Shown piece after piece: positions 1,052-63,599 of a DNA stretch of 64,000 nucleotides. This DNA is from Chiloscyllium plagiosum. Its lineage: Eukaryota. Made by a program: the position numbers and the translations under genes. Numbering within the stretch: position 1 is the first letter of the stretch; every line of letters begins with the position of its first letter. The stretch lies in the NCBI RefSeq assembly GCF_004010195.1, contig NC_057721.1, positions 70,665,336 through 70,729,335 of the forward strand. The letters run 5' to 3'. The notes beneath the pieces are model-generated. The model was not told the DNA's origin. It ran no database searches and worked only from the letters and a program-made list of their open reading frames with translations.

Positions 1052-53162
<52,111 letters not shown>

Positions 53163-53624
53163 GTCAGGCAACAATAAAGAGTACATTAGATACTGCACCT
53201 ACATTAGATACTGCACATTTAAAAAAAAATATATTAACTGGATATATTTTGCCAAATTGGAGGCATGTCTTTAAAAATTGAGCAAAAGTGTCTAACCTCT
53301 GAAAATTGTTAAGTAGCTTAACAAATCACTAAATTACAAAAAACAAGTTATTTTTAAAAGTGTTGAATTCGATTCCTTGATGTGGGTTTCACTTTCAGCC
53401 CTTCCTTACTAACTCCATTCTCCTTATGAAAGGGGCACAGGCCGACACCACAGAGCTCAATCCCCGGCCACAATTACTGACTGCATCCGGCCACACAGTG
53501 AGCAAGCCGGGCCCTGAACCACACTGACACTGCTGAGAGTGAAAGCAAGCTCAGCCCACAATACATACAAACAGCCAGCCTCCACATCCCCGCTCCCAGC
53601 TCCAAGTCCACTCTCCAGGCATTT

Positions 53625-54830: not shown

Positions 54831-55483
54831 ATTCTGGATTAGTGGTGCTGGAAGAGCACAGCAGTTCAGGCAGCATCTGAGGAGCAGTAAAATCGACATT
54901 TCGTGCAAAAGCCCTTCATCAGGAATACAGGCAGAGAGCCTGAAGGGTGGAGAGATAAGTGAGAGGAGGGTGAGGGTGGGGGTGGGGAGAAAGTAGCATA
55001 GAGTTGCAGTGGGAGAGGGACTCCCTGAGATTCTTGTAGAGAGAGGGGGAAAACTTCCTCAAGGCAGGCATCCTTGCAAGAGGCTTCACAGTAGGGTTAA
55101 AATTAACTAGGTAAAAACAATGACTGCAGATGCTGGAAACCAGATTTTGGATTAGTGGTGCTGAAAGAGCACAGCAGGTCAGGCAGCATCCGAGGAGCAG
55201 TAAATCGACGTTTTGTGCAAAAGCTCTTCATCAGGAATACAGGCAGAGAGCCTGAAGGGTGGAGAGATAAGTGAGAGGAGGGGGGGGTGGGGAGAAAGTA
55301 GCATAGAGTTGCAGTGGGAGAAGGACTTCCTGAGATTCTTGTAGAGAGAGGAGGAAAACTTCTTCAAGGCAGGCATCCTTGCAAGAGGATTCGCAGTGGG
55401 GTTAAAATCAACTAGGTAAAAACAATGACTGCAGATGCTGGAAACCAGATTCTGGATTAGTGGTGCTGGAAGAGCACAGCAGT
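54831..55483 (-). mobile_element. Tandem array (~2.1 x 305-313 bp) of a hammerhead-bearing mini-Penelope / retrozyme-like unit
   Basis: ggattagtggtgctg recurs at 54836, 55149 and 55454; hammerhead-like cores at 54895-54922 and 55207-55234. Confidence 0.85.
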
Positions 55484-56214: not shown

Positions 56215-57420
56215 GAGTGGAAACATCTTTTCCACATCTGCTCTATCTAGGTCTCTCTGTATTCTGTATGCTTAAATCAGATCCTCGCCTTATCCTTCTA
56301 AACTCTATCGAGTGCAGACCCAGAGTCCTCAATTGCTCCTCATATGACAAGCCCTTCATCCCTGGGATCAATCTTGTAAACATCCTCTAGACCTCCTCCA
56401 ACAACAGTACATCCTTCCTTAGATACAGGGCCCAAAACTGGTCACAATATTCCAAATATAGTCTGACCAGAGCCTTTTACAGCCAGAACAGTACATTCCT
56501 GTTCTTGTATTCTAGTCCTTTTCAAATTAATGCTAACATCGCATTTGCCTTTCCCCATTTAGAAAATTGTCTATGCCTCCATTCTTCCAATATTTTATAT
56601 TTTCCCACATTGTATTCCATCAGCCACTTCTTGATCCACTCTTGTAGCCTGTCCCAGTCTTTCTACAGCCTCCCTGCTTCCTCAACAATATCTGTCTCTC
56701 CACGTATCTTTGTGTCATCTGCCAACTTAGCAACAATGACCTCAATTGATTCGTCCAGATCGTTAATGTATAACATAAAGACGAACCCCATGCAGAGCTT
56801 CACTGATCACAGATTGCCATCCTGAAAAAAAGACCCCTTTAATCCCCTTTATCTGCTTTCTGCCAGTTAACCAATCCTCTATCCATGCCAATACTTTGCC
56901 CCTAACACCATGGGCTCTTATTTTATTAGCAACCTCCTGAGTAGCACATTGTCAAAGGCCTTCTGGAAATCCAAATCAATCTGGTTCTCCTTTGCTTAAC
57001 TTACTGATTACCTCCTCAAATAATTCTAACATATTTGTCAGGCATGACGTTCCTTTGACAAAGCCGTGTTGACTCAGCCTATTGTACCATGCACTTCCAA
57101 GTACTCAGCAATATCATCCTTAATAATGGTCTCTAAAATCTTACCCACGACCAAGGTCAGGCTAACCAGCTTATAGTTTCCTGTCCGCTGCCTCCTTCCC
57201 TTCATTACATTAGCCATATTCCAGTCTGCTGGAACCCTTCCTGGTTCTGGATCAGTGGTGCTGGAAGAGCACAGCAATTCAGGCAGCATCCGACGAGCAG
57301 CAAAATCGACATTTCGGGCAAAAGCCCTTCATCAGGAATAACCTGACTCCAGTGATTTCTGAACGATCACCATCAATGCCTTACAAACTCCTCTGCCAAC
57401 TCCTTCAGAATTCTTCTCCC
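56215..57420 (-). mobile_element. CR1 LINE RT fragment with nested Penelope repeat at ~57245-57340
   Basis: Reverse strand VPADW.MANV, GNYKLVSLTLVVGKILE, DFQKAFDNV; nested copy reads attcCTGATGAaGGGCttttGCCCGAAAtGTC. Confidence 0.85.
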
Positions 57421-57589
57421 TGCAGTTAGTCACTACAATCACCTCTGCAACCTGACTCTCTCAAAGCAGGAGACACTGCCTAAAAGGGTAGTAGAGGTGG
57501 GAATCTTCAGAACTGTTCAGAGCTATGAGCCCAAGTACCTAAAAACTGGAATGGATTAGATAGATGTGGGGGCGGGGGCAGTAAGGAGT

Positions 57590-58339: not shown

Positions 58340-58581
58340 ATTCATTTTTGTCCCGGGCAGGATGCTGTAGTCAGGAGGAGAAACTCCCTCCTCCTCCAGC
58401 AGCGGATGATGTCACCCGGTGGAATGTTTACATTGTCGCAGAAACTGACGGCGTTCCATTTCCATTGTTGAATGGTTACATTGTTTCCCCCGGGGTTCCA
58501 TCAGTCTCTGATCCTCACCACAAGGATACACACGGGGTCAGACACAGACACAGACGGACCCGGCTTGTCCTGCGGGCCACC
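58340..58581 (+). promoter_or_regulatory. ATG101 promoter / 5' UTR, CpG-rich region
   Basis: CpG-rich stretch running into exon 1; CRE-like TGATGTCA at 58407-58414; forkhead motif TGTTTAC at 58425-58431; strong Kozak gccaccATG at 58582. Confidence 0.55.
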
Positions 58582-58833
58582 ATGAACTGCAGGTCGCAGA
58601 TCCTGGAGCTCACCGTGGAAGCCAGGCAAATCGAGGAGACCGTGCTGGCCGTGCTCCACACCGTGCTTCTGCACCGGAGCTCGGGCAAGTTCCACTACAA
58701 GAAGGAGGGCACCTACTCCATCGGCACGGTGGGCACCGAAGACGTGGACTGCGATTTCGTCGACTGCACCTACGTGCGGGTCTCGTCCGACGAGCTGGAC
58801 CGTACGCTGCGTCGATCCGTAGGCGAGTTTAAG
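58582..58833 (+). CDS. ATG101: Autophagy-related protein 101, coding exon 1
   Basis: gccaccATG; [84 protein letters not shown]|gtgagt; 84 codons. Confidence 0.97.
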
Positions 58834-59683
58834 GTGAGTTCGCTCTGCAGACTTCGTTATATCTCTGCTGTTTTGTGTATTTTTTTTAAAAAAAGCGACG
58901 CCAGCTCCAAGCTCGGATTCATCATGGATCGAGTCGGTTGGTTTCGGTTTATGTTCAAATTCAAGCGCTTCCATTGTCTGCATTCTTCTCATAATGATTT
59001 ACAGAGTCTCCAGGCCTACAGTTGCAGTTTCAGCCTCACCTTGGTCGCTGTCACTCTTCGATCAGGCCTTCCTTCACACCCCCATGTCTTGATCCCAAAA
59101 TCAAGGCTGAGATTGAGTGTGACGTTCCCCGAGGTGCCCCCGGCCTTTTGAATGGAAGCCCACACCTGCACTGTGAGATAGTTGTGAGGGATCCCCATAA
59201 GGCACAATTTCAAAACAGAGTAGTTCTCTCCGGTTTTATAGGTTTGATCAGATTTGATTTAATGTAGCCACATGTACCATAGTACAGCGAAAAGCTTTGT
59301 TTTGTGAACAAAGCAAGCAAGCACATACAGATAATCACAACCACCTAGTGCTAGTGCTTCCAATTAAACCTGTTGGACTATAACCTGGTGTTGTGTGATT
59401 TTTAACTTTATACAGATCATAGGGTGCTTAGACAGAGGGAGGTATAGAGGGCTACAATGCACAAAGCAGATCAATGTTAACAAGATCAGCATTATTTGAA
59501 GTTAGAAAGGTCCATTCATCAGTCTAATAACAACAGGGAAGAAGTGGTTCTTGAACCTGTTGGTGCCTGTCCAAGCTTCTGTATTTTCTACCTGAGTTTG
59601 GAAGAGAACGTTCGATATTGCAGTGAATTGATGTAGCAACCCAGGGGGATGCCCTGAAAGTTGACTTAAAACCAACTTTAAAC

Positions 59684-63194: not shown

Positions 63195-63599
63195 GATGCC
63201 CTTCGTAATTCTGGAAGCGATGGGAGTGGTCAAATCTCCCTTGAGTTCTACCAGAAGAAGAAATCACGCTGGCCATTCTCAGATGAGTGCATTCCATGGG
63301 AGGTATGGGCCTTCAAACTCAACGTGGTGAACCTGGCCAATGAACAGGAGAGGCAGATCTGCCGTGAGAAGGTGGGCGAAAAACTAGGCGAGAAGATAAT
63401 TAATATCATCGAGGTCATGAACCGACATGAGTACTTGCCCAAAATGCCGACGCAATCAGAGGTGGACAATGTCTTTGATACAAGCCTGAGAGATGTGCAG
63501 CCGTACCTGTACAAAATCAGCTACCAGATCACTGATTCTCTTGGGACATCCGTTAGTACTACTATGAGGAGATTGATTAAAGACACACTGGCTTTATAA
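63195..63599 (+). CDS. ATG101: Autophagy-related protein 101, coding exon 2
   Basis: aatag|[38 protein letters not shown]...[10 protein letters not shown]; total 218 aa with the WF finger at W110/F112, as in vertebrate ATG101. Confidence 0.97.

What the first reader, a model, noticed from the sequence alone, without database searches (positions are those of the whole stretch)
54831..55483. Retrozyme-like tandem array: ~310-bp non-coding units each with a hammerhead, between the two promoters
Seen: 2.1 head-to-tail units of 313 and 305 bp. On the minus strand each has CUGAUGA-A-G(G/A)GC-UUUU-GCAC-(G/A)AAA-(U/C)GUC, with predicted cleavage sites 312 nt apart (54895 and 55207). Each unit is the Penelope-type terminal repeat (also solo at 50177 and 57245) plus ~170 bp of extra sequence, with no RT ORF. 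Both units share GCAC where the solo copy at 57307 has GCCC, implying one template. The array starts and ends in the same ~40-bp sequence, as expected for a greater-than-unit-length copy of a circular template. Established: non-LTR retrozymes in several animals are tandem repeats of a few hundred bp with type-I hammerheads that yield small circular RNAs and are thought to use Penelope-type RT. Inference: this is a shark retrozyme / mini-Penelope, possibly undescribed. These particular cores are mutated and may be inactive.
Basis: partly seen in the sequence, partly recalled or inferred. Interest (0 to 1): 0.8.

Follow-up and report, generated by a model that had tools for sequence, protein, structure and literature searches.

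The report
Two-lap mini-Penelope hammerhead insertion
A 650-base tandem repeat is a dead, twice-copied scrap of a Penelope-type jumping gene, one of hundreds of similar short copies in this genome, whose joints suggest how ribozyme-carrying repeats (retrozymes) are first born.

Summary
The array is real: 2.1 head-to-tail units, minimal hammerhead cores 312 nt apart, both mutated. Each unit is one contiguous stretch of a Neptune-type Penelope-like element (PLE): 76 nt upstream of the hammerhead through ORF nucleotide 70, joined end to start. The joint is not unique (14 matches, 13 loci), but its carriers scatter over PLE subfamilies, so it arose repeatedly; it is not one retrozyme lineage. Such fusions are common here: 54 of 80 sampled ORF-start copies, nearly all with their own joint. 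In 7 of 52 the upstream copy stops where the first stopped (1.3 expected); four other direct dimers repeat a locus-specific joint, three without terminal redundancy. Best reading: PLE reverse transcriptase starts internally on a short RNA, runs off its 5' end, jumps to its 3' part and runs further laps; a covalent circle is the main rival. No RNA evidence was found. It fails retrozyme membership (damaged cores, no multimers seen) but looks like a retrozyme at birth. The scan noted solo stubs of such elements elsewhere in this genome, not these fusions. A preprint already reports retrozymes in a cartilaginous fish.

The parts
54831..55483 (-). Whole insertion: two full laps plus a short third over a ~310-nt PLE segment; no target-site duplication found
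55414..55483 (-). 5' end: partial third lap, terminal-repeat positions +57 to +126 (0 = first C of the hammerhead core)
55306..55420 (-). Upstream unit: PLE 5' leader and first 70 nt of the ORF (ATG begins at 55376)
55306..55309 (-). Joint 1: ORF nt 66-70 joined to terminal-repeat position -76 through a 4-nt microhomology (ACTC)
55109..55309 (-). Complete middle terminal-repeat segment, -76 to +126 (pyrimidine tract, hammerhead, tail)
55207..55234 (-). Minimal type I hammerhead core, upstream copy; G12 changed to A and one helix II pair broken; predicted cut 3' of 55207
55001..55115 (-). Downstream unit: 5' leader and first 70 nt of the ORF (ATG begins at 55071)
55001..55004 (-). Joint 2, identical to joint 1
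54895..54922 (-). Minimal type I hammerhead core, downstream copy; helix II G-A mismatch, palindrome ACGU changed to AUGU; predicted cut 3' of 54895
54831..54842 (-). 3' end at +91, one of the two preferred 3' ends of the family (inferred reverse-transcription start site)
   Evidence: 27 of 54 fusion loci end near +90, 22 near +126

Best explanation
The array was made in one insertion by the reverse transcriptase/endonuclease of a Neptune-type PLE working on a short, linear RNA that spans one terminal repeat (from -76, a probable RNA 5' end, to about ORF nt 66-70). The enzyme primed at a nicked target, started internally at the tail site (+91), copied to the RNA's 5' end, jumped through a 4-nt microhomology to the ORF-side end of the same RNA, copied a second lap, jumped at the same place again and integrated 70 nt into the third lap. 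The hammerhead did not make the joint; it rides along and has since decayed. Shown: the anatomy, recurrence of the joint across subfamilies, abundance and clustering of such joints, single template for both units. Inferred: RNA ends, internal start (by analogy with the anole PLE), the jump, and linear rather than circular topology.
For: Unit is a contiguous PLE segment closed on itself. 3' end at one of the two family 3' ends, matching internal start sites shown for an anole PLE (PMC11167929). 6 of the 12 other same-joint loci have 13-19 bp target duplications and 4 have an inverted terminal repeat at the 5' end. Same joint in 13 tree rows needs 11 changes, at least 3 forced by strong branches; shuffled mean 12. 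54 of the first 80 of 544 ORF-start loci are fusions; ORF side at or below +130 in 35 of 54; other side clustered at -80..-70 (15), -15..+3 (10), +25..+40 (3, the cut site), -260..-235 (5). The upstream copy starts within 10 nt of the joint's own downstream coordinate in 7 of 52 loci, 1.3 expected, 0 of 20,000 permutations. Inverted partners stop at -73 and -76 in L007 and L115. Microhomology at 13 clean joints: mean 1.6 nt vs 0.79, one blunt joint vs 6.7 expected. Four other direct dimers repeat one joint (L015/L136, L137, L138, L139); three lack terminal redundancy, so they hold sequence a monomer would not have. Five inverted twins repeat a joint (L016, L017, L116, L117, L118). The two units share one derived change (GCAC, 0.5% genome-wide) and have about 7-8 private substitutions each; sisters in the tree, 91/75.
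Against: No RNA end or short RNA was seen. The seven stop-at-the-same-place loci belong to the -8 and +28 classes; for the window's -76 class only two inverted pieces stop there, while ten loci picked by search pass through, as a circle would. -76 is not a strong stop for ordinary copies: 7,307 continue with the usual base against 213 that differ, about half of the 100 listed being point changes (counted by eye). Two visible loci extend upstream past their joint coordinate (L058; L039, which the script mis-called). Microhomology used only 13 joints; 15 were not clean and 25 more were dropped by an upstream-match filter. No target duplication at this locus. Some joints do spread as lineages (L018-L024, L029-L032, L123-L125), so a re-mobilised source locus is possible.
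Confidence: 0.5

Rival explanations
1. Covalent RNA circle: a ~310-nt fragment was ligated at the joint (not at the hammerhead cut) and copied by rolling-circle reverse transcription.
For: Exact repetition of locus-specific joints in 5 direct dimers and 5 inverted twins, some with only 0-1 nt of microhomology (read by eye); circular templates proposed for PLEs (PMC4209133) and retrozymes (PMC7229834).
Against: Ligation does not predict microhomology excess or second laps ending at the joint coordinate; the monomer circle is not unusually structured (z -1.0, 60 shuffles).
Confidence: 0.22
2. Two steps: the joint arose earlier in a source mini-element elsewhere, whose transcript was re-mobilised; the dimer came from a jump between its terminal repeats or from an already dimeric source.
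For: Lineages sharing a joint and private changes exist (L029-L032; L123-L125; L143-L149). L005 has the same joint, similar subfamily marks and the 6-bp duplication seen in the downstream unit.
Against: None of the other 12 same-joint loci has GCAC; they span several subfamilies; L005 differs in its tail region. Still needs a first event of the kind proposed above.
Confidence: 0.13
3. DNA-level events after insertion: microhomology deletion of a full-length PLE, then unequal crossing-over between the 35-nt terminal repeats.
For: Microhomology deletions in PLE copies are described in a rotifer (PMC3846280, passages); this locus has 35 nt of terminal redundancy; tandem growth by unequal crossover is the scenario discussed in the 2026 preprint.
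Against: One shared against about 15 private substitutions puts duplication at or soon after insertion; three sister dimers lack terminal redundancy; inverted twins share joints; DNA deletion does not link the 5' start to the joint coordinate.
Confidence: 0.12
4. Member of an established, active non-LTR retrozyme family that yields abundant 312-nt circles joined at GUC.
For: Size and layout fit (150-450 bp repeats, PMC7229834); retrozymes averaging 363 bp reported in one cartilaginous fish.
Against: Both cores damaged; hammerhead is of the PLE minimal type; joint polyphyletic; no trimers among 25 best loci; no pile-up of RNA ends in the one raw-read run (poly-A library, weak test).
Confidence: 0.03

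Closest known systems
Metazoan non-LTR retrozymes (Cervera and de la Pena 2020, PMC7229834: passages, sections 13 and 17; Li, Clavereau and Pollet 2026, bioRxiv 10.64898/2026.07.22.740005: parts 1-3 of 5, supplements closed)
   Same: Tandem non-coding units of about 300 bp with a type I hammerhead in each; PLE terminal-repeat origin; presumed mobilisation by PLE RT; reported from one cartilaginous fish.
   Different: Minimal, damaged cores; only dimers seen; unit keeps the ORF start; the joint recurs independently instead of marking a family; no circle shown. The preprint argues origin from phylogeny and co-occurrence and proposes local tandem amplification; it gives no joint-level mechanism in the parts read.
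EN+ PLE insertions with pLTR, tail, partial tandems and inverted ends; minimal hammerheads in pLTRs (PMC4209133 parts 1-2 of 4; PMC8557442 and PMC3846280 passages)
   Same: Same sequence family as a full-length element here (L053, RT hit); extra base between positions 9 and 10.1, G10.1-C11.1, palindromic helix III; two 3' ends; inverted 5' copies; long target duplications.
   Different: Here most sampled copies holding the ORF start are short self-closed fusions, not full-length or plainly 5'-truncated copies.
Anole Poseidon PLE in vitro (Frangieh et al. 2024, PMC11167929, parts 1-2 of 4)
   Same: Two internal start sites defining the tail; RNA needed downstream of them; hammerhead cleavage not needed for insertion, in line with L029/L030 sharing a destroyed core.
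   Different: Different clade and layout; that work did not report end-to-end jumps or multi-lap products in the parts read.
Non-autonomous Chlamys PLE derivatives such as MRC1 (PMC8557442, passage)
   Same: Non-coding PLE derivatives with pLTRs and multicopy head-to-tail insertions.
   Different: Algal, discrete families; the passage does not describe recurrent private joints or hammerheads in them.

Membership tests
Non-LTR retrozyme | Head-to-tail non-coding repeats of 150-450 bp, GC under 50%, no LTR/PBS/PPT | tested here: met
   2.1 units of 305-312 bp, GC 0.44-0.48; only 70 nt of ORF; PBS/PPT not searched separately
Non-LTR retrozyme | [quoted passage not shown] | tested here: not met
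   Upstream core G12A plus broken helix II pair; downstream core helix II mismatch and altered palindrome
Non-LTR retrozyme | Canonical type I hammerhead (6-bp helix I, loop-loop contact) as in the 2020 definition | tested here: inconclusive
   Core is the PLE's own motif with minimal-type traits; MFE folds do not give a hammerhead; Rfam 0 hits; helix I and tertiary contacts not modelled. The preprint accepts minimal motifs too
Non-LTR retrozyme | A family of related copies, monomers to multimers | tested here: not met
   Same-joint copies polyphyletic; other 12 loci hold one joint; no three identical units in 25 best loci (partial search)
Non-LTR retrozyme | Expressed as monomeric linear and circular RNA | tested here: inconclusive
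   one poly-A raw-read run (about 2% read) and three contig sets; family-wide reads only, no clustered ends; unsuited to circles
Non-LTR retrozyme | Self-cleavage in vitro | not testable with these tools
   needs bench assay
Non-autonomous derivative of an EN+ PLE | Sequence identity to the terminal repeat and ends of an RT-coding PLE in the same genome | tested here: met
   90-97% to natural reference loci; L053 carries the same leader, an RT domain (PF00078, E 4.4e-6, 27 bits, under the 29.6 cut-off) and the same 3' end
Non-autonomous derivative of an EN+ PLE | 3' end at the tail sites; target duplications and inverted 5' ends typical of PLE insertion | tested here: met
   3' end at +91; duplications at 6 of 12 sister loci, none at this locus; inverted ends at 4 of 12
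Neptune/Nematis clade (partner element) | CX2-5CxxC linker motif upstream of the GIY-YIG domain | tested here: inconclusive
   A fragment beside a mini-copy in L018 reads as this motif with the first Cys changed; a window fragment at 45123-45536 has all three; definition; no RT tree built

The most novel reading that the evidence does not exclude
This PLE continually spins off retrozyme founders: its RT closes short terminal-repeat RNAs (or true circles) into self-joined 300-550-nt units and writes them as dimers that carry two hammerheads, the minimum for ribozyme release of a circle. The genome then holds every stage: one-off fusions, same-joint dimers like this one, and spreading multi-hammerhead lineages with intact cores (L119/L120/L131/L132). 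The joint coordinates would map the RNA 5' ends (-76, -6, +28) and the edge of the protein-binding element (about ORF +50 to +130), and joints at +28 would record hammerhead cleavage in vivo.
Probability: 0.4. Interest if true: 0.7.

Novelty: new variant of a known kind. Interest (0 to 1): 0.48.

Why it matters
The locus itself is a decayed transposon scrap. Its value is as a record of mechanism. How animal retrozymes arise from PLEs, and how PLE RT gets from an internal start to tandem copies, are open in the papers read. The joints give base-level predictions: defined short RNAs should yield multi-lap cDNA with a purified RT, RNA ends should lie at three named positions, and dimers with intact cores should cleave. 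Joints and 5' ends at the cut site (L041, L107) are indirect signs that a minimal PLE hammerhead does cleave in vivo. I found no account of such recurrent joints in six literature searches, which cover open-licence papers only; the preprint's closed supplements may list this unit among cartilaginous-fish retrozymes.

Tried and rejected
Rfam: 0 hits. MFE folding of four cores: no hammerhead fold, z -0.3 to -1.0; expected for dimeric minimal motifs, so uninformative. Sequencing runs: no RNA holder listed. Laying four runs on one unit plus flank: reads come from the whole family; the 'goes back 310' joint is just the normal tail-to-leader continuity of the element and is no evidence of a circle; no clustered ends. 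Idea that the ORF-side break is a second hammerhead cut at a GUC: rejected, breaks spread from about +50 to +400. Idea that -76 is a general strong stop: not supported. Idea of one master lineage for this joint: rejected. Fold-back copying as the source of inverted twins: cannot explain L016, where each arm has sequence the other lacks. Lower limit of the ORF-side break: by eye, clear joints among listed rows on contigs C1-C11 were about 3-4 for +12..+26, about 13 for +51..+65 and about 29 for +71..+85; rough, ambiguous rows left out, denominators not measured. Look-up of earlier notes by sequence: nothing. Pfam found nothing for the N-terminal PLE ORF piece or the minus-strand exon at 52821-53198. 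Withheld stretches leave 14 of 80 sampled loci unclassified and the upstream parts of several lineages unseen.

Full report
Observation. The array is in the sequence as described: 54831-55482, period 305, 2.1 copies, 92% matches, with identical first and last 35 nt. On the minus strand two hammerhead-type cores lie at 55207-55234 and 54895-54922, giving a 312-nt cut-to-cut monomer. Rfam does not detect them and the 7-mer alone is at chance level; the call rests on the whole motif, which has the traits listed for minimal PLE hammerheads: an extra base after A9, a G10.1-C11.1 pair and a palindromic helix III (PMC4209133). Both cores are damaged: the upstream one has G12 changed to A and a broken helix II pair, the downstream one a helix II mismatch and an altered palindrome, whereas 60 of 104 cores in fetched loci are intact. 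Positions below are counted from the first C of the core (0); the cut lies before +28.

What the unit is. A long copy in the same genome (L053) has the same leader, an ORF with an RT domain (PF00078, E 4.4e-6, just under the curated cut-off) and the same 3' end. A linker motif seen in two fragments points to the Neptune/Nematis type; I built no RT tree. Against natural reference loci each unit is one contiguous PLE segment, from -76 through hammerhead and tail to ORF nucleotide 70, joined back to -76 through a 4-nt microhomology. The array ends at +91, one of two preferred 3' ends (27 of 54 fusion loci near +90, 22 near +126), as expected if reverse transcription starts internally at two tail sites, shown for an anole PLE (PMC11167929).

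Is the joint a family mark? A 24-nt pattern across it has 14 exact matches at 13 loci, control 0. The other 12 loci each hold one joint, have different 5' ends, 4 have an inverted terminal repeat, and 6 have 13-19 bp target duplications; they are independent PLE-type insertions. In a tree of 55 3' segments the 13 same-joint rows that could be aligned need 11 changes, at least 3 forced by strong branches, no fewer than shuffled labels (mean 12; 125 of 500 as low). The joint arose several times in different subfamilies. The tree is short-branched and recombination could add to the scatter.

How common are such fusions? An ORF-start pattern with the usual continuation has 544 matches, and 135 more differ 15 nt on, many being joints. 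Of the first 80 of the 544, 54 are fusions of the ORF start to the terminal-repeat region, 6 are long, 6 end otherwise and 14 run into withheld sequence. Nearly all have their own joint. The ORF side lies at or below +130 in 35 of 54 (the sample cannot see breaks before +86); rough counts by eye suggest few breaks before about +50. The other side clusters at -80..-70 (15), -15..+3 (10), the cut site (3) and -260..-235 (5). Median unit length is 384 nt. Earlier notes of this scan on solo stubs in this genome also place starts just upstream of the core; the window's own solos agree, five starting at -4 to -6.

Mechanism. Three patterns bear on it. First, in 7 of 52 fusion loci with a visible 5' end the upstream copy starts within 10 nt of the coordinate at which the downstream copy was joined (1.3 expected; 0 of 20,000 permutations). 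This is what a linear RNA with a fixed 5' end gives when the enzyme runs a second lap and stops where it first ran off. Second, when a locus has two joints they are usually the same and locus-specific: five direct dimers (this one, L015, L137, L138, L139) and five inverted twins; these were picked by search, not at random, and L030 and L140 have two different joints. Three of the direct dimers have no terminal redundancy and contain sequence that a monomer with the same ends would lack, so unequal crossing-over cannot have made them. Third, 13 clean joints show more microhomology than local shuffles (1.6 vs 0.79 nt, p 0.008; one blunt joint vs 6.7), which fits a template jump better than ligation; this is a small subset of the 53 joints called. 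For this locus, the units share one rare derived change (126 vs 25,835 genome-wide) and have about 7-8 private substitutions each, close to the end-branch lengths of the family (median 0.023), so the dimer is about as old as the insertion. I infer internal start at +91, run-off at -76, a jump to ORF +66-70, a second lap, the same jump, and integration at +57. That RTs can jump from a template's 5' end to a 3' end is recalled from R2 and group II intron work and comes from no call.

Limits. The stop-at-the-same-place loci are of the -8 and +28 classes; for the -76 class only two inverted pieces stop there (L007, L115), and -76 is not a strong stop for ordinary copies. A covalent circle therefore remains a real rival for this locus. 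Two loci extend past their joint coordinate (L058, L039). Some joints do spread as lineages: L018-L024, L029-L032 (two sharing a destroyed core, so the ribozyme is not needed for spread), L123-L125 and L143-L149, and concatemers with different joints and intact cores about 290 nt apart (L119, L120, L131, L132). No target duplication flanks this array. RNA data were uninformative: no RNA holder listed, and the one raw-read run was poly-A selected and showed family-wide reads with no clustered ends. The genomic position 'between two promoters' is unproven: ATG101 exons lie at 58585 and 63198 and the only CpG-rich stretch nearby is 58,401-59,200.

Comparison. It works like a founder retrozyme: two hammerheads one unit apart, PLE-derived, PLE-mobilised. 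It is not a member by the tests I could run: cores incomplete, no family of multimers, no RNA shown. Non-LTR retrozymes are defined in PMC7229834, and a 2026 preprint reports them in one cartilaginous fish (mean 363 bp) and derives them from PLE terminal repeats; its supplements were closed and may list this unit. What I did not find in six searches is the recurrent self-joined mini-copy as a main product of a PLE, or joint-level evidence for how such dimers begin.

Verdict. Real feature; decayed two-lap mini-PLE; a new variant of a known kind. Interest 0.48, mostly for the testable route from PLE to retrozyme, not for this locus.

Noticed in passing
L119, L120, L131, L132 (central parts): A spreading family of mini-PLE concatemers with two or three different joints and intact hammerhead cores about 290 nt apart; better retrozyme candidates than the window's array.
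   Followed up: partly
L123, L124, L125; related L143-L149: Near-identical mini-PLE copies at different loci carrying 12 copies of a 34-bp minisatellite made from the ORF start; looks like a young non-autonomous family.
   Followed up: partly
L041 and L107: Joint and 5' start both fall at or within 3 nt of the predicted hammerhead cut, an indirect sign of cleavage in vivo.
   Followed up: partly
L029 and L030: Two loci share a joint and the same destroyed hammerhead core; the lineage spread without a working ribozyme.
   Followed up: partly
window 55252-55259 and 54940-54947 (-): The pyrimidine tract ends in a 3' splice-site-like CAG about 20 nt upstream of each core; in Drosophila virilis Penelope an intron ends at helix I. 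Not tested.
   Followed up: no
window 51391-51530: Head-to-head inverted pair of terminal-repeat stubs; further solo stubs at 7273, 33535, 45008, 46892, 50172, 57245 and 57741.
   Followed up: no
window 45123-45536 and 47155-47229: Fragments of a PLE ORF (Cys-rich linker motif; C-terminal end).
   Followed up: no
window 58585-58920 and 63198-63599 (+); 52818-53198 (-): ATG101 coding exons (Pfam PF07855) in or after a CpG-rich stretch; the minus-strand exon resembles C2CD2/C2CD2L from recall, no Pfam hit. If both genes share the 58.4-kb island, the array lies sense in a first intron.
   Followed up: partly
window 56300-57460 (-): Decayed LINE-like RT sequence (CR1-like from recall) interrupted by the solo stub at 57245-57341.
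   Followed up: no
window 19243-19534: 147-bp tandem duplication, 97% identical.
   Followed up: no
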